Origin: an uncultured Candidatus Saccharibacteria bacterium | Lineage (GTDB): Bacteria; Patescibacteriota; Saccharimonadia; Saccharimonadales; 2-12-FULL-41-12 | DNA: 64,000 nucleotides | Reading direction: 5' to 3' | Assembly (NCBI GenBank): GCA_964573095.1 | Contig: CAZNIK010000001.1 | Location: 185,004 to 249,003, forward strand | In this document: piece by piece, positions 15,248-59,377 of the stretch | How the letters are laid out: each line of letters opens with the position of its first letter | Numbering within the stretch: the stretch's first letter is position 1 | Position numbers and translations under genes: made by a program | The notes under the pieces: model-generated | What the model was told of the DNA's origin: nothing | Database searches by the model: none | The model's input: the letters and a program-made list of their open reading frames with translations, nothing else

Positions 15248-17208
15248 TGGCACGATCGGCTATTTTAAGTAATGGCCGCCTGGCGGTGGGGCTTAACGAG
15301 CGCGGCCATGTGCATGACTTTTACTTTCCATACGTTGGGCTCGAAAACCTCACCACCGCAAGAAGCTTGCATCACAAAATCGGTATTTGGATTGATGACG
15401 TGTTTAGCTGGACAGACGATGATGCCTGGGAATGCAGCGTTGATCTATCGCCAGACGCACTTACGGCAACCTGCATTATGATAAACAGAGCCTTGGGCGT
15501 CTCGCTGCGCACGGTTGATTTTGTAGACCACGAATACGACACCTGGTGTAGAAGAATCTATGTAAAGAATTTAACCGATTCCCTGCAAGAAGTGCGTTTA
15601 TTTATGCACCAGGTATTTCAAATCTCCAGCGCAGGTCGTGGGGACACCGCATTATACGAACCAGAAGGAAACTACATATTAGATTACAAGGGACGAGTTT
15701 GTTTACTCATTGGCGGGCGCAGTGGCAACGAGGAATTTGACCAATACGCCGTTGGAAACTATGCGATTGAGGGCAAAGCAGGAACCTATGTTGATGCCGA
15801 GGATGGAGAATTATCAAATCACCCTGTCGAACACGCCGGCGTAGACTCTGTTATCCGTTTTTGCTATCAAATACAGCCAGGCGACGAAGCCCAGACAGAC
15901 TATTGGGTTGTTGCCGACGACTCTCAATATGCCTGCGACAACACTCACGAAGTCATGAGAAAGGGTCTCGATAAGCGCCAAAAAATTCACGAACAGTATT
16001 GGCAAGAATGGTTAAGTATAAGTGATGCGCGGCTTTCGGCACTGCCAGGAAAAGAAAGATTCCTTGCTCGCAAGTCCCTCATGACCGTAAAGGCCCACAT
16101 CGATAGTCACGGAGGAGTTATCGCGTCGTGCGACAGTAGTATTTACAACTACGGAAGAGATTATTATAGCTACGTGTGGCCGAGAGACGGCGCCTATGCA
16201 ATTTGGCCATTAATTCGTTTGGGTTACACCGAAGAACCGAAGGCTTTTATCAAATTTTGCAGGGATCTCATTACTAAAGATGGCTATTTGATGCACAAGT
16301 ATCAGCCAGACCGCGCCATAGGAAGCACCTGGCATCCTTTGGTCCATGGGAAGCGCCGAGAATTGGCTATACAAGAAGACGAAACTGCGACCCTACTCAT
16401 CGCACTAGGCGAATATTACGATTACAGCAAAGATGCAGATTTTGTAAAAGAGCTTTACGAAAGTCTTGTAGTCAAATGCGCAAACTTTCTCAGTAGTTTT
16501 ATCGACGCTGGCACAGATTTGCCACACGCAAGTTATGATTTGTGGGAGGAGAAATTTCTTACCACAACGTATACAACTGCGACCGTATTTGCCGGGCTAC
16601 AAGTTGCAAGTGAACTCGCAGAAACGTTTGGAACAGCTGAGCAAAAAGAAAAATGGACTGCGGACTGCGAGAAACTAGTTGATCGTTTTCCAGTGTTCAT
16701 CAACCCAGATAACCAAACTTTCCGCAAAGGGTTTTTGTACAACCAAGAAGCCGACTCGCTCGATTTCGACAACACCGTCGACATATCAAGCATGTACGGG
16801 GTGATGACGTTCGGCTATTCACCCACAGAGGTTGATCCATCTCACGCAATAGAACAAACAATAAGCAGTCTCCGTAGCTCGCCAGAGTTAGGGGGGTGGC
16901 CCAGGTATCAAGGCGACAGCTACTTCCGAGTTTCAGACGGAGTCTCTAACCCGTGGATAATTGCCACTTTGTGGGTGGCTCAGTATTACATTCGAGCAGG
17001 CCAATTTGATTCAGCCAAGAAGCTCATTCACTGGGTAGAAGAACGCGCCCTTCCCAGCGGAATGTTCCCAGAGCAAGTGAATCCCATAGATGGCACACCA
17101 AAGTCAGTTACGCCGCTGGTATGGAGTCACGCCGAATACATAAACACTTTGCTTGACCTACAGCACAGGCAGGCCGATACGGACAGTCTAGGCCTTAAGC
17201 TAGATTAA
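15247..17208 (+). CDS. glycoside hydrolase family 15 (glucoamylase / glucodextranase-like)
   Basis: YSYVWPRDGAYAIWPL and other GH15 (alpha/alpha)6 motifs. GTG at 15247 follows AGGGG and overlaps the GH57 stop (TAGTG). An in-frame alternative GTG lies at 15211. Confidence 0.85.
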   Translation: MARSAILSNGRLAVGLNERGHVHDFYFPYVGLENLTTARSLHHKIGIWIDDVFSWTDDDAWECSVDLSPDALTATCIMINRALGVSLRTVDFVDHEYDTWCRRIYVKNLTDSLQEVRLFMHQVFQISSAGRGDTALYEPEGNYILDYKGRVCLLIGGRSGNEEFDQYAVGNYAIEGKAGTYVDAEDGELSNHPVEHAGVDSVIRFCYQIQPGDEAQTDYWVVADDSQYACDNTHEVMRKGLDKRQKIHEQYWQEWLSISDARLSALPGKERFLARKSLMTVKAHIDSHGGVIASCDSSIYNYGRDYYSYVWPRDGAYAIWPLIRLGYTEEPKAFIKFCRDLITKDGYLMHKYQPDRAIGSTWHPLVHGKRRELAIQEDETATLLIALGEYYDYSKDADFVKELYESLVVKCANFLSSFIDAGTDLPHASYDLWEEKFLTTTYTTATVFAGLQVASELAETFGTAEQKEKWTADCEKLVDRFPVFINPDNQTFRKGFLYNQEADSLDFDNTVDISSMYGVMTFGYSPTEVDPSHAIEQTISSLRSSPELGGWPRYQGDSYFRVSDGVSNPWIIATLWVAQYYIRAGQFDSAKKLIHWVEERALPSGMFPEQVNPIDGTPKSVTPLVWSHAEYINTLLDLQHRQADTDSLGLKLD

Positions 17209-17221
17209 TAACCGCGGTTAT

Positions 17222-17428
17222 TTATTTTTTGCGGGCTTTTACTTCGTTTCGGCCAAGGTTTTTCTTGGTTTCAACATACAAAACGTGCCTGCGAGCAATA
17301 GGATCATACTTTCTGAGTTCTAGCTTATCTGGAGTGTTCTGAAGGTTCTTCTTCGTATAATAAGTCCTATGTCCTGTTTCCTCAGAAACAAGACCAACCA
17401 ATTTTCTTTTATTACTCTTTGTCGCCAT
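17222..17428 (-). CDS. rpmG: 50S ribosomal protein L33 (Cys-less form, C-terminal extension)
   Basis: [33 protein letters not shown] matches the L33 core. All four zinc-ribbon Cys positions are substituted. Confidence 0.85.
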
Positions 17429-17466
17429 TTATATTACTCTAACAGATTGTGCAGTATATGTAAACG

Positions 17467-17542
17467 TGGAGCCACGAACCGGGATTGAACCGGTGACCTT
17501 AGCATTACCATTGCTACGCTCTACCAACTGAGCTATCGTGGC
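17467..17542 (-). tRNA. tRNA-Thr (anticodon GGU)
   Basis: Reverse complement folds as GCCACGA / GCTCAGTTGGTAGAGC / TAGCA-ATGGTAA-TGCTA / ACCGGTTCAATCCCGGT / TCGTGGC-T-CCA. Confidence 0.9.
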
Positions 17543-18117
17543 AGCATCCCAACGATTATATCTCGAAGCTTCTTATTATGAAAATACACTGTCACTACAC
17601 CATACTTACTTTTTCTGCGATAGTTTCCTATTGAACCCGAAATAGTCACATGAGTTTTGTAAAACTGATCTCTTGAGACACTGAGTTGATTTGTCCAATA
17701 GAGCATCGCTTCTTCTTGATCAATATCAGTAAATAATTGCAATCCAAATTTTAATTTTGATCTTTTAACTGAGAAAAAACGCACCAGAAAACTTATGAAA
17801 GTTTCTATAAGCTTTGGGTCTGAATTTCCTAGCCTAATCGAGTGTGTGTCCGCTTTTGTGCCTTCACCCCAATAAAGCCCCATCCCCATGCCAAATAAGT
17901 TTGCGTCTTCGAGCGTTTGGGGCGACCTAAAAGTAAACGGATCACCGGCCGGATTTGCTTTTTTGTATATGGCGTCGCTTATCGACCTCCTCACTATTTC
18001 GTGTTTTTTCATCCAATACACAACTTTGTGGTGTGAACACCCAAGCGCATGCGAAATATCCATCATGGACTTCTCTTCAGTCACGTACAGTTTTTCGAGA
18101 AGTCTCTTTTCAATCAT
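17533..18117 (-). CDS. HTH-domain protein with a LAGLIDADG-like endonuclease motif (194 aa)
   Basis: N-terminal HTH (MMDISHALGCSHHKVVYWMKKHEI), then LFGMGMGLYWGEGTK resembling the LAGLIDADG core. AT-rich: 17-22 G+C per 60 nt in two hand-counted lines. The stop overlaps tRNA-Thr by 10 nt. Confidence 0.55.
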   Translation of the reverse strand: MIEKRLLEKLYVTEEKSMMDISHALGCSHHKVVYWMKKHEIVRRSISDAIYKKANPAGDPFTFRSPQTLEDANLFGMGMGLYWGEGTKADTHSIRLGNSDPKLIETFISFLVRFFSVKRSKLKFGLQLFTDIDQEEAMLYWTNQLSVSRDQFYKTHVTISGSIGNYRRKSKYGVVTVYFHNKKLRDIIVGMLPR

Positions 18118-18160
18118 GGTAGACCTTTACATACACAGGAATATACTATACGCAATAATA

Positions 18161-18189
18161 TTGGTTTTTCAAGCTTACTTTGCTACAAT
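18161..18189 (+). promoter_or_regulatory. candidate promoter for the tRNA-Thr/tRNA-Tyr pair
   Basis: TTGGTT (18161-18166), 17-nt spacer, TACAAT (18184-18189), about 22 nt upstream of the tRNA. Confidence 0.4.
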
Positions 18190-18211
18190 TTACTTCTGTT
18201 AGGTAGGCTAT

Positions 18212-18287
18212 GCCGACGTAGCTCAGTGGCTAGAGCGGCTGTTTTGTAAACAGCGGGTCGCCGGTTCGAATCCGGCCGTCGGCTCCA
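18212..18287 (+). tRNA. tRNA-Thr (anticodon UGU)
   Basis: GCCGACG / GCTCAGTGGCTAGAGC / GCTGT-TTTGTAA-ACAGC / GCCGGTTCGAATCCGGC / CGTCGGC-T-CCA. Confidence 0.9.
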
Positions 18288-18302
18288 AACCAAGCGCATT
18301 AT

Positions 18303-18388
18303 GCAGGGTTAGTGAAGCGGTCAAACACGTCAGACTGTAAATCTGATGGCTTATGCCTTCGCAGGTTCGAATCCTGCACCCTGCACCA
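18303..18388 (+). tRNA. tRNA-Tyr (anticodon GUA), class II with long variable arm
   Basis: GCAGGGT acceptor, anticodon arm TCAGA-CTGTAAA-TCTGA, variable arm TGGCTTATGCCTTC, T-arm GCAGGTTCGAATCCTGC, ACCCTGC-A-CCA. Confidence 0.9.
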
Positions 18389-18552
18389 AGCATGGTTTGG
18401 CAACTCTGCCAGGCCATGATTGGTCTAGTAGATCATGAGAACCGAAGGTTCGGCGGACGAGAAGCGCAGAGCAAAATGAGTTTACTCGTTTTTGCCGAGC
18501 ATCGCAGGAAGGAGTGTGGCGAAGCCACGCGATATCCTGCACCCTGCACCAA
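18371..18552 (+). repeat. 19-nt direct repeat of the tRNA-Tyr 3-prime end (att-like)
   Basis: ATCCTGCACCCTGCACCAA occurs at 18371-18389 (end of T-loop through CCA plus 1 nt) and again at 18534-18552. The offset is 163 nt and the enclosed segment is 144 nt. Confidence 0.85.
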
Positions 18553-18564
18553 ACCATAAGCATT

Positions 18565-19050
18565 ATGTCTATACTTGTAGCACGTCACGGCTTTTCTGTC
18601 GCTAATGATCGCGACCAATACGGCACGCCAGCCTTCGGCAATCCAGAAGCCTCACTGATGCCTCAAGGTAAAGAGCAGGCTACAGACTTAGGTGGAAGAT
18701 TAGCTAGTGAATATGGTTTTGATGTTATAAACGAGCCTGTAGCTGTTTCCATGATGCGGCGAACACAAGAAACGGCAATTGTAGCTGGATTCCGCTGGTT
18801 ACACATTTATCCCGAACTTGATGAAGAAAAAGGTGGTATGACTGATGAAGGGACCCGTGAAGCGTTGACTACCAGGCGTCCGCCCGCTGCAACTCGTGAA
18901 GCAGCACAGTACCTTATCGCCACCCCACCAAAAGAAAGAGTCTGGGTCACTCATGCGTTATTGATAGCAACTTTATGCCAGGAACTAGGTGTCTACCAAG
19001 ATGAGCGATTTACACCCAAGTTTTGCGAAATCAGAGAGCTCCCTTTATAG
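18565..19050 (+). CDS. histidine phosphatase (phosphoglycerate mutase-like) family protein
   Basis: MSILVARHGFS carries the RHG catalytic motif; downstream H in VWVTHALL. The ATG at 18565 is chosen because the track start 18514 lies inside the tRNA-derived repeat. Confidence 0.7.
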   Translation: MSILVARHGFSVANDRDQYGTPAFGNPEASLMPQGKEQATDLGGRLASEYGFDVINEPVAVSMMRRTQETAIVAGFRWLHIYPELDEEKGGMTDEGTREALTTRRPPAATREAAQYLIATPPKERVWVTHALLIATLCQELGVYQDERFTPKFCEIRELPL

Positions 19051-19152
19051 TTTGACTAGTAGTAAAGTTCTGCTCTCAGCAATCACGCTACACCACAGAT
19101 TAGAGCATTTAGTGCGTTAGAATTTTCTGAGCTAATGCGATAATGTATAGCC

Positions 19153-19380
19153 ATGTTGAAGTTTCAATTTAATAAGCTTGTGCGAGACAAGATTGTTGAT
19201 CAGCAAATTGCGTCTGGAGCAAAACCTCACTACCGCGCACTGACAGGAAGCGATCTAGATATTGTCGAGGACTCCCCAAAAGATGATTTTTGGGGATGGG
19301 GTCCAAATCGAGATGGACGAAACGAACTTGGCAAAATCTGGATGCGATTAAGAAGCGAGCTACGCCAAAAGAGAAGCTAA
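19153..19380 (+). pseudogene. 75-aa chimeric remnant: MazG-like N-terminal fragment joined to a NADAR/YbiA-like C-terminal fragment
   Basis: FNKLVRDKIVDQ resembles the start of MazG-type NTP pyrophosphohydrolases. DDFWGWGPNRDGRNELGKIWMRLR resembles the C-terminal NADAR motif. Neither domain is complete. Confidence 0.35.
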
Positions 19381-20036
19381 ACGACGACGCGTTTTGAGGG
19401 ACGACGAATACGAGATTTTCGCTTGCCGGTGGGAACTTTCATCTTTTTCAGCTTATCTTCTATCAAGTCGGCTTTGTCTTCTATCCCCATAGAGCGATAT
19501 GTCCTCTCGAGCATTGCAAACACCTCGTGGGTGGGCTCTATCTCGCTAGCTTTTTCGAGCTCATCTAGCATTTGTTTTTCATTTCCCAGGCGCTCCAAGG
19601 CTTTTGCAAGCGCGATGTGCCTTGCCGCCATCGTATCTTCCAACTTCAGAGCTTCCTCGAATGCCGTCACGCCTTTTTCGTAATTTTCGGTTTCATAATA
19701 AATAAGCCCTAGATTGTGCAAACTTGAGGCGGTTGGCTCAATACTGCACGCTATTTCGAAGCAGTCAATGGCGTCCTTATATTCTTTTTGCTTTGCGTAC
19801 AAAATGCCCAGGCGATTGTAAGCTGCAGCATTTTTTTCGTCGATTTTTAAGATAGTAAGCAGCGCTTTTTCCGCCCTTAGCAACCGGTTTTCTCGCATAC
19901 CCTGGTGTACAACATCCCAAAGCCGGCCAATCCGTTCACCAATTCGATGGGGAATATCGGGCTCCTCTTCAGAATGTTTTGAAAACGCCCGAAAAGTGAG
20001 GGCGCCAAGCCCAACAATAAGTACAAGTTCATACAT
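19377..20036 (-). CDS. membrane-anchored tetratricopeptide-repeat protein
   Basis: N-terminal hydrophobic helix, then repeated TPR-like units (AAYNRLGILYAKQKEYKDAIDCFEIA..., SLHNLGLIYYETENYEKGVTAFEEAL...). Confidence 0.8.
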   Translation of the reverse strand: MYELVLIVGLGALTFRAFSKHSEEEPDIPHRIGERIGRLWDVVHQGMRENRLLRAEKALLTILKIDEKNAAAYNRLGILYAKQKEYKDAIDCFEIACSIEPTASSLHNLGLIYYETENYEKGVTAFEEALKLEDTMAARHIALAKALERLGNEKQMLDELEKASEIEPTHEVFAMLERTYRSMGIEDKADLIEDKLKKMKVPTGKRKSRIRRPSKRVVV

Positions 20037-57263: not shown

Positions 57264-58127
57264 CTAATATCTTTGTAAGTCACTAGGGTTTCTTCCGCGT
57301 ATTTCTAATTGTCTAGCATAACTCGCATTATCCCGTTCTGCTTTAGCAACTCTTTCCTTAACATCTTTTTTACCAATGTACAGCGCGGTAGGATCGCGAG
57401 ACATAAAGCTGCTTTTTGCAACACCAAGTCTTACCAAAGTAGTAATAACAGGGTTTTTGTATTTATCTTCTGGCTGCACATACTCATCTTTTCTAACTAT
57501 TCGTCCCTTTATTACACCGCGAAGCCTAGAGGGAACTGTGTAATCAACTATTTTTTCACCATCTACCTCACTGACTTTAGGTGCTTCAAGCACAAAAGAC
57601 TCTCTTGGGTCTGGAAGCTTACCCATAACCACTTCATCATAGTCAATTCGTGGTGGGTGAAAGTGATGATTCCATACCATAACAACGGGCACACTTCTTC
57701 GTGTATCTAGCAATCCCCTTAACCTTTCAAGTTCATCTCCAACTTGCACCGCAAGTTTTACTGGGTTTGAACTTGGTCTAATCTGCTGTTCGTGTCTGTC
57801 AATGCGGAACATTTCAGAACCTCTTGATGTCCAGCTGTTCAATGGAAGGTCTGTTGCTTCAAAGGCAGCAAGAACACCCAATCTGTAAGCTATGGGCAAA
57901 AATCCATCATCTTGGGAAGCTACTTCTTGCATAAGGGTTTGTCGGGCGGCACGCTGTTCTTCTTCGGTTGCTATGTAGCCAAGTTGTTGCCTAAGTTGTT
58001 GGGGGTCGTTCTGGTTTATTTCAAATGCTACGGCATTAAAAGCACGTTGCTGCTCTGCACTAGCTGTTTGCCAAGCGGCAAACGTATCTAAACCAGATAT
58101 CCTACCTTCTACCAAAGCAGCATTCAT
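57264..58127 (-). CDS. hypothetical protein (287 aa), no recognisable domain
   Basis: Long ORF, soluble, Gln/Glu-rich N-terminal part. Hand-counted lines inside it give 22-30 G+C per 60 nt, against 30-31 in ribosomal operon lines. Confidence 0.6.
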   Translation of the reverse strand: MNAALVEGRISGLDTFAAWQTASAEQQRAFNAVAFEINQNDPQQLRQQLGYIATEEEQRAARQTLMQEVASQDDGFLPIAYRLGVLAAFEATDLPLNSWTSRGSEMFRIDRHEQQIRPSSNPVKLAVQVGDELERLRGLLDTRRSVPVVMVWNHHFHPPRIDYDEVVMGKLPDPRESFVLEAPKVSEVDGEKIVDYTVPSRLRGVIKGRIVRKDEYVQPEDKYKNPVITTLVRLGVAKSSFMSRDPTALYIGKKDVKERVAKAERDNASYARQLEIRGRNPSDLQRY

Positions 58128-58381
58128 AAACCGAAGTGTATCAGCTCATATTTAGTAGAGCAAGCACAAGCAAATTGTAATGTGCATGGTGTTGCACGAT
58201 AAGTATTTTACCTACGCCAGGCGCTAACGGGTTCTCTCTACCATAAATCAACTCGGCGATGCTCGTCAATCGAGCTGCCAGTCTTGCAAACTGCGATAGG
58301 TAATTCTCGCCTTCCCGCCTGGGCTTGAATCGAATCTCTGCCGCCCGACCATAAATAAAACCCAGCAAAGCTAGGGTGTAT

Positions 58382-58568
58382 TTTTGGTGCGCGAGAAAGG
58401 ACTTGCCATAATTGCGTTTCTTCGAGACAAGTCTCTCCAGAAACGACCAAGTAAAGAAAACATAAACTGACACTGTCAGTTTATGCCTCCGGTTCAAGTC
58501 CTCGGCTACAAAACAACAAGGCGACCACTATGGTCGCCACATTGTTTTGGTGCGCGAGAAAGGACTTG
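58382..58568 (-). repeat. 24-nt direct repeat of the tRNA-Leu 3-prime end (att-like)
   Basis: Plus-strand TTTTGGTGCGCGAGAAAGGACTTG occurs at 58382-58405 and 58545-58568. In tRNA sense it reads CAAGTCCTTTCTCGCGCACCAAAA (mid T-loop through CCA plus AAA). The offset is 163 nt and the enclosed segment is 139 nt. Confidence 0.85.
58510..58538 (-). terminator. intrinsic terminator after tRNA-Leu
   Basis: 8-bp stem GGCGACCA (58520-58527) / TGGTCGCC (58531-58538). On the minus strand it is followed by TTGTTGTTTT. Confidence 0.55.
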
Positions 58569-58632
58569 AACCTTCACGCCTTGCGGCACTAGTTCCTAAG
58601 ACTAGCGTGTCTACCAATTCCACCACTCGCGC
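58548..58632 (-). tRNA. tRNA-Leu (anticodon UAG), class II
   Basis: Reverse complement: GCGCGAG acceptor, GTGGAATTGGTAGACAC D-arm, CTAGT-CTTAGGA-ACTAG, variable arm TGCCGCAAGGCGT, GAAGGTTCAAGTCCTTT, CTCGCGC-A-CCA. Confidence 0.9.
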
Positions 58633-58699
58633 AAAAAACAAAATTGACTCCACTATTTTACAAGTTATCTTGGGAGAACGCAAAGGAGTAACGTGCGAC

Positions 58700-59377
58700 T
58701 TAGCGGCTGGCGCCGCGCATCGAAATACGACCGAGCACCACGCCGGCTTGCTGAACGCCTAGTTCTTCGATCTTGGAACGGATAGAATACATAAGCCCAA
58801 GATCGTTCGACTTTGCAATATCGACTGTTGGGTAATAGTGTTTGTTGCCGATATCTACGCCGTTAAGATCACAAAAAGAAAGGAGCTCCTCTGACTCTTC
58901 CTGCAAACTTAGTTTGGTCATGGCATCTAGCTTTAGGGCAACACGATAGTCGTGCAAGGCGTTCGGAGCATTTCGGAGGGTCACCACATCTGCCACTTCG
59001 GCATATAACTGACAAGGTTGCTGCCGCGAACCGACCAGAATATCGAAAGGGTTAAAGCCTACGCCAAGCTCTTCAGCAGTCTTTTGAATTAGATCAAACC
59101 GTCCTGCAGTTACAATTGGCACCAGCGGACTAGGAAGTATCCTTACGCCTTCGGTTTTCTGATATTTTTTTGTAATTTGGGCAACTTGACTCCCAAGTCG
59201 GCGATAGCCGTCATCAAAGCTCATTGGTCGAAATACCTCAAAACGCCCATATCCATTCCTGGTGGGGCTAGCTATTCTACCGTTTCGTCTATGCGGAAGC
59301 TCTGGCAAACCAGAAAGAAACTTATTGGCATGATGAAAGTTCCTACGGTTTGGCCGCCTTGATTTTTTGCTCGCCAT
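58700..59377 (-). CDS. hypothetical protein (225 aa) with a strongly basic N-terminus
   Basis: MASKKSRRPNRRNFHH..., then a globular region. No motif recognised; no clear 2H-phosphoesterase HxT pairs. Confidence 0.6.
   Translation of the reverse strand: MASKKSRRPNRRNFHHANKFLSGLPELPHRRNGRIASPTRNGYGRFEVFRPMSFDDGYRRLGSQVAQITKKYQKTEGVRILPSPLVPIVTAGRFDLIQKTAEELGVGFNPFDILVGSRQQPCQLYAEVADVVTLRNAPNALHDYRVALKLDAMTKLSLQEESEELLSFCDLNGVDIGNKHYYPTVDIAKSNDLGLMYSIRSKIEELGVQQAGVVLGRISMRGASR

What the first reader, a model, noticed from the sequence alone, without database searches (positions are those of the whole stretch)
18371..18552. 19-nt direct repeat of the tRNA-Tyr 3-prime end: an att-like scar enclosing only 144 nt
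ATCCTGCACCCTGCACCAA is repeated exactly, 163 nt downstream. It covers the last two T-loop bases, the 3-prime T-stem, the 3-prime acceptor strand, the discriminator, CCA and one extra base.

Duplication of the T-loop-to-3-prime-end segment is the classic footprint of tyrosine-integrase elements that target tRNA genes. Here, though, the enclosed segment has no gene. It contains only hairpins: CATGG..CCATG at 18391-18418, and two GAA-triloop stems at 18439-18451 and 18516-18528.

Downstream lie a histidine phosphatase and a chimeric gene remnant. Possible readings are a decayed or excised island, a miniature non-autonomous element, or a docking site still used by an episome.
Basis: partly seen in the sequence, partly recalled or inferred. 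Interest (0 to 1): 0.6.

Follow-up and report, generated by a model that had tools for sequence, protein, structure and literature searches.

The report
RtT-like repeat after tRNA-Tyr gene
The repeated 19 bases are real and mark a 163-base, gene-less, hairpin-rich insertion behind the tRNA-Tyr gene of a Saccharibacterium; it is built like the classical "RtT" repeat units behind the E. coli tRNA-Tyr genes, not like a scar left by an integrating virus or island.

Summary
ATCCTGCACCCTGCACCAA occurs exactly twice (18371-18389 and 18534-18552), and 0 of 100 shuffles gave two matches. An independent assembly shows the same duplication.

Close relatives have tRNA-Tyr followed 14 nt later by the phosphatase ATG. 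The window therefore carries a clean 163-nt insertion.

It is not unique. tRNA-Leu(tag) in this window has an analogous unit with the same 163-nt period. About a dozen further units lie beside Arg, His, Thr, Gly, Met, Lys and Tyr tRNAs in other Saccharibacteria. The units at 3' ends share one layout:
- an imperfect inverted copy of the tRNA 3' quarter, often containing ATGAGAAC;
- a direct AGGTTCG;
- two or three hairpins;
- a direct copy of tRNA positions about 59-76.

The 178-bp repeats behind E. coli tyrT/tyrV (Rfam RtT, gene rttR) have the same layout, down to ATGAGAAG...AAGGTTCG and a terminal 19-mer.

No integrase, cargo gene or episomal copy was found.

Best reading: a single RtT-type tRNA-linked repeat unit, probably transcribed with the tRNAs and ending in a tRNA-like 3' end. 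How such units arise and spread is unresolved. The Rfam RtT model does not score it, so I call it a new variant of a known kind.

The parts
18212..18287 (+). tRNA-Thr(tgt), first gene of the tRNA pair; a promoter-like site lies upstream at 18120-18159
   Evidence: ARAGORN; Rfam tRNA 72.3 bits; promoter scan
18303..18388 (+). tRNA-Tyr(gta), intact, with encoded CCA
18371..18389 (+). repeat copy 1: tRNA-Tyr positions 59-76 plus 1 nt
18390..18552 (+). 163-nt insertion relative to the empty sites in L053 and L043 (an RtT-type unit including its terminal copy). Because of the repeat, the boundary can be slid by up to 19 nt.
   Evidence: alignment A7
18391..18418 (+). 12-bp hairpin whose 5' arm holds TGGTTTGG (18393-18400). 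This block is shared by all four tRNA-Tyr units and reads as an imperfect complement of ...CCCTGCACCA.
18420..18438 (+). TTGGTCTAGTAGATCATGA, an imperfect inverted copy of the tRNA 3' end. In the predicted fold TTGGT pairs with ACCAA of copy 2 (closing helix P1). It runs into the ATGAGAAC motif (18434-18441).
   Evidence: MFE pairs; motif comparison with E. coli RtT
18439..18452 (+). GAACC-GAA-GGTTC hairpin. Its 3' arm, AGGTTCG (18446-18452), is a direct copy of the 5' T-stem plus the start of the T-loop.
18448..18500 (+). long imperfect hairpin. Its closing stem TTCGGC/GCCGAG is conserved in the tRNA-Tyr units of L071 and L067.
18504..18540 (+). stem GCAGGA/TCCTGC, a T-stem mimic. It encloses the hairpin GTGTGGC-GAA-GCCACGC (18514-18530). 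The arms of this hairpin are swapped or changed but still complementary in L071 and L067.
18534..18552 (+). repeat copy 2. It lies at the ancestral distance (13 nt) from the phosphatase ATG.
18565..19050 (+). histidine phosphatase gene; probably co-transcribed with the tRNAs (inference)
   Evidence: PF00300, E = 2.8e-9. No + strand promoter-like or terminator-like site lies between 18288 and 18564.
58382..58547 (-). second unit of the same kind, behind tRNA-Leu(tag) (58548-58632). From the tRNA outward it has: a terminator hairpin (58520-58539); the inverted T-arm copy GGACTTGAACC (58491-58501); two hairpins (58461-58485 and 58415-58445); and a 23-nt terminal copy AAGTCCTTTCTCGCGCACCAAAA (58382-58404; the tRNA's own copy is at 58545-58567). 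The period is again 163 nt.
   Evidence: Relative L078 has the identical tRNA plus the terminator but no unit.

Best explanation
The 19-mer is the terminal segment of a single RtT-type tRNA-linked repeat unit, about 163 nt long, inserted directly behind tRNA-Tyr.

Reading 5' to 3' on the tRNA strand, the unit consists of:
- an imperfect inverted copy of the tRNA's 3' quarter, ending in ATGAGAAC;
- a direct copy of the 5' T-stem and the start of the T-loop (AGGTTCG);
- two or three hairpins;
- a perfect direct copy of tRNA positions 59-76.

How it most likely works. The layout is shown here; the RNA steps are inferred.
- tRNA-Thr, tRNA-Tyr, the unit and the phosphatase gene are read as one transcript.
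- tRNA-Tyr is cut out as usual.
- The trailer folds into a compact multi-hairpin RNA whose 3' end is a second ...ACCCUGCACCA.
- That end is trimmed and protected like a tRNA 3' end, as is reported for E. coli rtT RNA.
- Copy 2 also keeps the downstream mRNA start in the same sequence context it has in relatives without the unit.

At the DNA level:
- Units are gained and lost often.
- The tRNA-end repeat allows precise loss.
- The repeat could also serve as a portable homology arm for spread by recombination.
- How a unit first arises is not resolved.
For: 1. Clean 163-nt insertion relative to close relatives.

2. Recurrence of the layout.
- In a survey of 68 tRNAs, 8 have an exact 16-nt copy of their 3' end 75-178 nt downstream, and more have decayed copies.
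- The periods are 163, 163, 163, 167, 169, 192 and 193 nt.
- tRNA-Leu in this same window is one of them.

3. Each unit contains an inverted copy of its own tRNA's T-arm, with exact 11-12-mers for Leu, His and Gly, followed by a direct copy of the 5' T-stem.

4. E. coli comparison.
- The last 19 nt of E. coli tRNA-Tyr recur at 175/178-nt spacing.
- Each E. coli unit is Rfam RF00391 RtT at 133-137 bits, and the first one downstream of tyrV is annotated rttR.
- The E. coli layout is: inverted GGGGAAGGAT, then ATGAGAAG, then direct AAGGTTCGA, then hairpins, then the direct 19-mer.
- The window has ATGAGAAC, then AAGGTTCGGC, then hairpins, then the 18/19-mer.
- ATGAGAAC also occurs in the L049 Thr unit, and ATGAGA in the L017 His and Gly units.
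- The RF00391 consensus pairs the inverted copy with the terminal copy, like the closing helix P1 predicted here.

5. Four tRNA-Tyr units (window, L067, L071, decayed L049) share the blocks TGGTTTRG, AGGTTCGGYG and CCGAG. Their last hairpin has arms that changed yet stay complementary.

6. Structure.
- z-scores run from about -3 to -7 in 9 of the 13 units and are weaker (-0.6 to -2.0) in four.
- The tRNA-sense strand folds better than the antisense strand in 12 of 13 units.

7. There is no terminator-like or promoter-like site between tRNA-Tyr and the phosphatase ATG.

8. [quoted passage not shown]
Against: - The Rfam RtT model does not score the window unit, nor the seven loci holding most of the other units that were scanned, even with permissive E-value limits of 1 to 10. 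The link rests on layout and short motifs, not on detected homology.
- The unit here is single, not a tandem array.
- There are no expression data for this organism.
- In most other units a terminator-like hairpin sits between the tRNA and the unit. That argues against simple read-through.
- The distribution is patchy: about 4 of 15 tRNA-Tyr loci carry a unit. This fits a selfish or neutral insertion as well as a functional RNA.
- The strand asymmetry is weak once composition is controlled for: 10 of 13 units.
- The inverted copy in the window unit is poor. Only TTGGT and a few more pairs form with copy 2.
Confidence: 0.55

Rival explanations
1. Miniature or decayed integrative element. A tyrosine-integrase element crossed over in the T-loop of tRNA-Tyr and restored the gene with its own 3' end. 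What remains is attL plus attR with only the attP arms. It would resemble a CIME, mobilisable in trans by a helper integrase.
For: - The repeat starts at T-loop position 59 and runs to CCA plus 1 nt. From my own knowledge of P4-type integrases, this is the classical identity block for T-loop crossover.
- The site is precisely empty in relatives.
- The narrow size range, 163-193 nt, would fit a minimal attP.
- In L047 a larger, different insertion lies at the same tRNA-Tyr/phosphatase junction. It carries a gene whose N-terminus looked to me like that of a restriction-modification enzyme, judged by eye only. So this junction is a hot spot for insertions.
Against: - No integrase-like ORF appeared in the crude screen of 208 ORFs from the held Saccharibacteria DNA, which includes the unit flanks, and there is no cargo.
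- No attP-like copy was found in viral, metagenome, phage or plasmid searches. The only non-tRNA viral hit lies inside a portal-like ORF.
- An att scar does not predict the conserved internal order of inverted and direct tRNA pieces, nor the ATGAGAAC motif shared with E. coli RtT.
- The same 89-nt module sits beside partial copies of two different tRNAs, Arg and Lys.
- At tRNA-Leu the hairpin inside the repeat interval is the native terminator, as judged from L078.
Confidence: 0.15
2. Purely mutational product. Replication strand-switching (snap-back) at the terminator and T-arm palindromes makes an inverted plus direct partial triplication of the tRNA 3' end, like a tandem-inversion duplication. 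It would have no function and no mobility.
For: - My reading of the sequences printed is that the inverted copy starts with TGGN, in register across the first hairpin with the tRNA's NCCA. I found this exact in 8 of 11 units and with one mismatch in 3. It is absent at 5 empty sites (sequences).
- In L020 the terminator is duplicated along with the tRNA end.
- 5'-side partial duplications also exist, with breakpoints in the T-loop or D-loop.
Against: - At the tRNA-Tyr locus the first hairpin and the inner hairpins are not native sequence, because the empty sites L053 and L043 lack them.
- 60-85 nt of hairpins between the two direct pieces are unexplained.
- Units at the same tRNA are homologous across species.
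- In L071 the terminal copy carries a different tRNA-Tyr allele from the resident gene. The unit therefore came in from elsewhere.
- Three unrelated units have exactly the same 163-nt period.
Confidence: 0.12
3. Small hairpin-forming mobile DNA element acting through single-stranded DNA. The folded inverted and direct tRNA pieces would mimic the duplex of the tRNA gene end, like the folded attP of CTX phage or an integron attC site. A host recombinase would insert it at tRNA genes.
For: - If the insertion is written as a circle, the 19-mer, the first hairpin and the inverted copy form one long imperfect hairpin beside the other hairpins.
- The topology is direct repeat, short loop, inverted arm, rest of the element, direct repeat. 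From my own knowledge, this matches an integrated CTX-type element.
- A repeated 89-nt module with compensatory changes sits in partial copies of different tRNAs.
Against: - No recombinase is implicated and no free form was seen.
- The central 12 nt of the inverted arm hardly pair.
- The hypothesis is not needed once the RtT parallel is seen.
Confidence: 0.08
4. Assembly artefact or chance repeat.
For: None beyond the fact that the source is a metagenome-assembled genome.
Against: - Chance expectation is 0.01 matches.
- A second assembly gives the identical sequence.
- The same layout appears in many independent assemblies and in the finished E. coli K-12 genome.
Confidence: 0.01

Closest known systems
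RtT RNA / the 178-bp repeats downstream of E. coli tyrT and tyrV (Rfam RF00391; gene rttR)
   Same: - The unit lies directly 3' of a tRNA-Tyr gene on the same strand.
- It ends in an exact copy of the tRNA's last 19 nt, including CCA.
- Sizes are similar: 175/178 nt in E. coli against 163 nt here.
- The internal order is the same: inverted T-stem/acceptor copy, ATGAGAA(G/C), direct AAGGTTCG, hairpins, terminal copy.
- The inverted copy pairs with the terminal copy.
   Different: - There is no RF00391 hit.
- The unit is single, not repeated 3-4 times.
- The inverted arm is much more degenerate here.
- The host is a Saccharibacterium.
- In this phylum the same layout follows Leu, Arg, His, Thr, Gly, Met and Lys tRNAs, and mirror-image forms occur 5' of tRNAs.
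- There is no tpr-like ORF.
attL/attR footprints of tRNA-targeting tyrosine-integrase islands, and CIMEs (att-flanked elements without an integrase; reviewed in PMC5704250)
   Same: A 17-20-nt direct repeat of the tRNA 3' end starting in the T-loop, an intact tRNA, and empty sites in relatives.
   Different: No integrase, no cargo and no free form. The insert is only 144 nt. It has internal inverted and direct tRNA pieces and a motif shared with RtT.
MITE/REP/BIME-type small palindromic repeats
   Same: No ORF, rich in hairpins, about 100-200 nt, variable presence, located between genes. Similarity between rtT and BIMEs has been noted in Enterobacteria (PMC2965389).
   Different: There is no multi-copy dispersed consensus in the DNA held here. 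The ends are copies of the neighbouring tRNA rather than fixed terminal inverted repeats. There is no short target duplication.

Membership tests
RtT RNA (Rfam RF00391) / tyrT-linked 178-bp repeat | Lies immediately 3' of a tRNA gene, on the same strand | tested here: met
   The unit 18390-18552 follows tRNA-Tyr 18303-18388. In E. coli the units follow tyrT and tyrV.
RtT RNA (Rfam RF00391) / tyrT-linked 178-bp repeat | The unit ends in an exact copy of the last ~19 nt of the tRNA, including CCA | tested here: met
   window; E. coli.
RtT RNA (Rfam RF00391) / tyrT-linked 178-bp repeat | Internal order: inverted copy of the 3' T-stem and acceptor strand, AUGAGAA, direct AAGGUUCG, hairpins; the inverted copy pairs with the terminal copy | tested here: met
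   The inverted arm is weak in the window unit and clear in the L049 Thr unit and the window Leu unit.
RtT RNA (Rfam RF00391) / tyrT-linked 178-bp repeat | Scores at or above the RF00391 gathering threshold (45 bits) | tested here: not met
   No RtT match at E <= 10 in window 17000-20000 and 58000-58750 or in L038 and L040, and none at E <= 1 in six further loci. The E. coli units score 133-137 bits.
RtT RNA (Rfam RF00391) / tyrT-linked 178-bp repeat | Tandem repetition of the unit | tested here: not met
   Only two copies of the 19-mer, hence one unit.
RtT RNA (Rfam RF00391) / tyrT-linked 178-bp repeat | A stable RNA is processed out of the tRNA operon transcript | not testable with these tools
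   Indirect only: no terminator or promoter between the tRNA and the unit, and the sense strand folds better.
Tyrosine-integrase integrative element (attL/attR) | Direct repeat of the tRNA 3' end that starts in a loop, with an intact tRNA | tested here: met
Tyrosine-integrase integrative element (attL/attR) | An integrase gene inside the element or next to it | tested here: not met
   The 144 nt hold no gene. The neighbours are an HTH/LAGLIDADG-like protein, a phosphatase and a NADAR fragment. A crude motif screen of 208 ORFs in all held Saccharibacteria DNA found none. The rest of the genome was not seen.
Tyrosine-integrase integrative element (attL/attR) | An attP-bearing free or other-replicon form | tested here: not met
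   The viral, metagenome, phage and plasmid searches gave only tRNA genes, chance hits and one more chromosomal unit.
Tandem-inversion duplication (template switching) | All inserted sequence derives from the local ancestral sequence | tested here: not met
   The empty sites L053 and L043 lack the hairpins. Only about 45 of the 163 nt can be traced to the tRNA.
MITE | Fixed terminal inverted repeats, a short target-site duplication, and many dispersed copies | tested here: not met
   The unit interiors have no paralogues in 305 kb, except the 89-nt module of L038/L040. The ends are specific to each tRNA.

The most novel reading that the evidence does not exclude
RtT-type units are not an enterobacterial oddity. 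They would be a class of tRNA-end-mimicking units that spans phyla, from Proteobacteria to the Candidate Phyla Radiation. They attach to many tRNA identities.

They would spread and vanish through their built-in copy of the tRNA end, which acts as a portable homology arm or a folded target mimic. They would yield a processed RNA with a conserved core (ATGAGAAC...GGTTCG) that acts on tRNA processing or starvation signalling.
Probability: 0.3. Interest if true: 0.8.

Novelty: new variant of a known kind. Interest (0 to 1): 0.6.

Why it matters
From my own knowledge, the E. coli tyrT repeats and rtT RNA have been known since 1978-1991 without a settled function or origin, and Rfam models them from enterobacteria only.

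If the Saccharibacteria units are the same kind of thing, three things follow:
- There is a diverse comparative set: many tRNA identities, filled and empty sites, and young and decayed copies. It could be used to work out which parts are constrained and how units are born, move and die.
- Annotators could stop calling such tRNA-end duplications integration scars.
- Tiny-genome symbionts would be shown to tolerate, or use, these units next to single-copy essential tRNA genes.

Tried and rejected
- Rfam scans of the window regions and eight loci found only tRNAs. There was no ribozyme, tmRNA, Y RNA or RtT hit.
- Viral scan of the 19-mer: L001 is a phage tRNA-Val and L002 lies inside a portal-like ORF, so there is no attP.
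- Metagenome scan: four single-copy tRNA-Tyr genes, one further unit (L067), two phage tRNA genes, and chance hits.
- blastn of the unit against phages and plasmids: no match.
- A covariance model of the 89-nt L038/L040 module finds only its three source copies and does not hit the window. The hit in L021 lies in coding sequence.
- Hammerhead, T-box, retron, omega-RNA/IS200-605 and retroviral primer-binding-site readings were considered on sequence grounds. I dropped them because core motifs are broken, no partner protein is present, or the element would target itself.
- Automatic alignment of the three tRNA-Tyr units misaligned the first hairpin, so I compared blocks by eye.
- L068-L070, L072-L074, L076 and L077 gave no further units.

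Full report
**1. The observation**

The window is from a Saccharibacterium. The closest relatives of its genes are all Candidatus Saccharibacteria or Saccharimonadales.

ARAGORN finds tRNA-Thr(tgt) at 18212-18287 and tRNA-Tyr(gta) at 18303-18388. The 19-mer ATCCTGCACCCTGCACCAA occurs at 18371-18389 and 18534-18552 and nowhere else, even with 3 mismatches allowed. Chance expectation is 0.01.

This stretch folds far better than shuffled sequence, with z = -5.4. A separately assembled Logan contig has the identical sequence.

**2. It is an insertion**

The histidine phosphatase that starts at 18565 has close homologues. I fetched their contigs.

- In L043/L045 (80% protein identity) and in L053 (80%), the tRNA-Tyr CCA is followed 14 nt later by the phosphatase ATG.
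- In alignment A7 both relatives show one clean gap matching the extra 163 nt of the window. Copy 2 lies at the ancestral distance from the ATG.
- L049/L050 (75%) carry a shorter, decayed version. Its second copy is degenerate: TCGAATCCTATAACCTACGCCAAG.

**3. It is one of many**

I scanned 68 tRNAs in the window and the fetched loci.

- Eight have an exact 16-nt copy of their 3' end 75-178 nt downstream. Several more have decayed copies or 5'-side duplications.
- tRNA-Leu(tag) in this same window (58548-58632, minus strand) has a 23-nt repeat with the same 163-nt period.
- Other cases follow Arg(tct) in L011 and L012, His and Gly in L017, Thr in L049 and L032, Met in L020 and Lys in L038.
- The metagenome scan of the 19-mer returned single-copy tRNA-Tyr genes plus one more unit, L067, with a 169-nt period.
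- Following the neighbouring 194-aa gene gave a third intact tRNA-Tyr unit, L071.
- Eleven other tRNA-Tyr loci have no unit.

**4. Common anatomy**

After the tRNA, and usually after a terminator-like hairpin, comes an imperfect inverted copy of the tRNA's 3' quarter.

- By my reading of the printed sequences, it begins with TGGN, complementary to NCCA. It contains an exact or near-exact complement of the T-loop and 5' T-stem of that same tRNA (Leu GGACTTGAACC, His ATCGAACCCAC, Gly GAACTCGCATCA).
- Next come a direct copy of the 5' T-stem plus TTCG, then 60-85 nt of hairpins, then the direct copy of positions about 59-76 plus 1-4 trailer bases.
- In predicted folds the inverted segment pairs with the terminal copy and closes the structure.
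- Nine of the 13 units have z-scores between about -3 and -7; four are weaker. The tRNA-sense strand folds better in 12 of 13 by energy and in 10 of 13 by z-score.
- The four tRNA-Tyr units share sequence blocks. Their last hairpin keeps complementarity while its arms change: GTGGC/GCCAC, GCCAC/GTGGC and GGAC/GTCC.
- In L071 the terminal copy carries a different tRNA-Tyr allele from the resident gene. The unit and its copy therefore arrived together from another lineage.

**5. A repeated module**

In L038 and L040 an 89-nt three-hairpin module occurs three times, beside partial copies of tRNA-Arg and tRNA-Lys.

- 8 of its 34 predicted pairs show compensatory changes.
- A covariance model built from it finds only these three copies in 305 kb.
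- Rfam has no family for it.

**6. The known parallel**

From my own knowledge (Egan & Landy 1978), E. coli tyrT is followed by 178-bp repeats that each begin with the tRNA's last 19 nt. I fetched that locus to compare.

- AATCCTTCCCCCACCACCA recurs at 175/178-nt spacing.
- Each unit is Rfam RF00391 RtT at 133-137 bits. The first unit downstream of tyrV is annotated as the small RNA rttR.
- The E. coli layout is: inverted GGGGAAGGAT, then ATGAGAAG, then direct AAGGTTCGA, then hairpins, then the direct 19-mer.
- This is the same order as in the window, including ATGAGAAC and AAGGTTCGGC.
- The RF00391 consensus pairs the inverted copy with the terminal copy.
- RF00391 itself does not score any of the Saccharibacteria units scanned.

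**7. Against an integrase scar**

- The insert holds no gene.
- A crude motif screen found no integrase-like ORF in the held Saccharibacteria DNA.
- No phage, plasmid or episome copy exists.
- At tRNA-Leu the hairpin inside the repeat interval is orthologous to the native terminator of relative L078, which lacks the unit. The window also has about 1.4 kb extra there, so this last point is not conclusive.
- Pure template switching is also insufficient, because the hairpins at the tRNA-Tyr site are not native sequence.

**8. Verdict**

This is a real, polymorphic, gene-less insertion. It is best filed as a single RtT-type tRNA-linked repeat unit.

It is probably transcribed with the tRNAs. There is no promoter-like or terminator-like site before the phosphatase ATG. 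It would end in a tRNA-like 3' terminus.

Its birth and spread are unresolved. Recombination through the tRNA-end copy, a hairpin-guided insertion, and an integrase acting in trans all remain possible.

Finding this layout in Saccharibacteria, at many tRNA identities, is to my knowledge new.

Noticed in passing
window 58382-58547 (-), behind tRNA-Leu(tag) 58548-58632: A second unit of the same kind with an identical 163-nt period. It has a 23-nt repeat AAGTCCTTTCTCGCGCACCAAAA, an exact 11-nt inverted T-arm copy and two long hairpins. Relative L078 has the identical tRNA and terminator but no unit.
   Followed up: yes
window 58229-58356 (+): Two tRNA-like 3' fragments about 100 nt apart, both ending in ACCATAAAT: GGGTTCTCTCTACCATAAAT and TCGAATCTCTGCCGCCCGACCATAAAT. 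No intact tRNA is nearby. This looks like a decayed unit on the opposite strand, converging on the same terminator as the tRNA-Leu unit.
   Followed up: partly
window 17533-18117 (-), overlapping tRNA-Thr(ggt) 17467-17542: A 194-aa protein with more than 800 homologues, nearly all 194 aa long. Its stop codon lies inside the first 10 nt of tRNA-Thr(ggt) here and in L072-L077. The AlphaFold model (pLDDT 87.7) shows an N-terminal helix-turn-helix bundle and a C-terminal alpha-beta-beta-alpha-beta-beta-alpha domain, with a GLYWGEG motif, resembling a LAGLIDADG homing-endonuclease fold. There is no Pfam or NCBIfam hit, and Foldseek gave only weak hits.
   Followed up: partly
L038:1067-1155, L038:5370-5459, L040:5240-5328: An 89-nt three-hairpin module present three times, with compensatory changes. 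It is embedded in partial copies of tRNA-Arg(tcg) and tRNA-Lys(ctt). In L038 a 54-nt copy of tRNA-Arg positions 1-53 precedes it. It is not in Rfam.
   Followed up: partly
L047:1-474, compared with L043: The phosphatase protein is the same as in L043. Here, however, the junction with tRNA-Tyr holds a different, larger insertion, and only CTGCACCA plus the trailer is kept. It carries a gene whose N-terminus looked to me like that of a restriction-modification enzyme (judged by eye only). The junction is an insertion hot spot.
   Followed up: no
L043:2472-2891 and L071:2634-3032: A PD-(D/E)XK endonuclease gene (PF11645; from my own knowledge, the family of the tRNA-intron homing endonuclease I-Ssp6803I) lies between tRNA-Thr(tgt) and tRNA-Tyr in two relatives. 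It is absent from the window.
   Followed up: no
window 18285-18305 and 18549-18567: The 15-nt spacer after tRNA-Thr (CCAAACCAAGCGCATTATG) resembles the trailer after copy 2 (CCAAACCATAAGCATTATG). The phosphatase ATG lies 13-14 nt after a tRNA-type CCA in the window, L043 and L053. This suggests an mRNA whose 5' end is made by tRNA processing.
   Followed up: no
window 19153-19380 (+): A 75-aa ORF whose residues 32-71 match only the C-terminal end of the NADAR domain (PF08719; there is also a weak hit to an NADAR anti-phage family). It appears to be a gene remnant. The region between the TPR gene and L33 varies in content in every relative examined.
   Followed up: partly
L053:629-951: Copies of the first 16-19 nt of tRNA-Thr(tgt) and tRNA-Thr(ggt), the latter with one mismatch, lie 107 and 117 nt upstream of the genes, with breakpoints near the D-loop. 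In the window this interval is occupied by the 194-aa gene.
   Followed up: no
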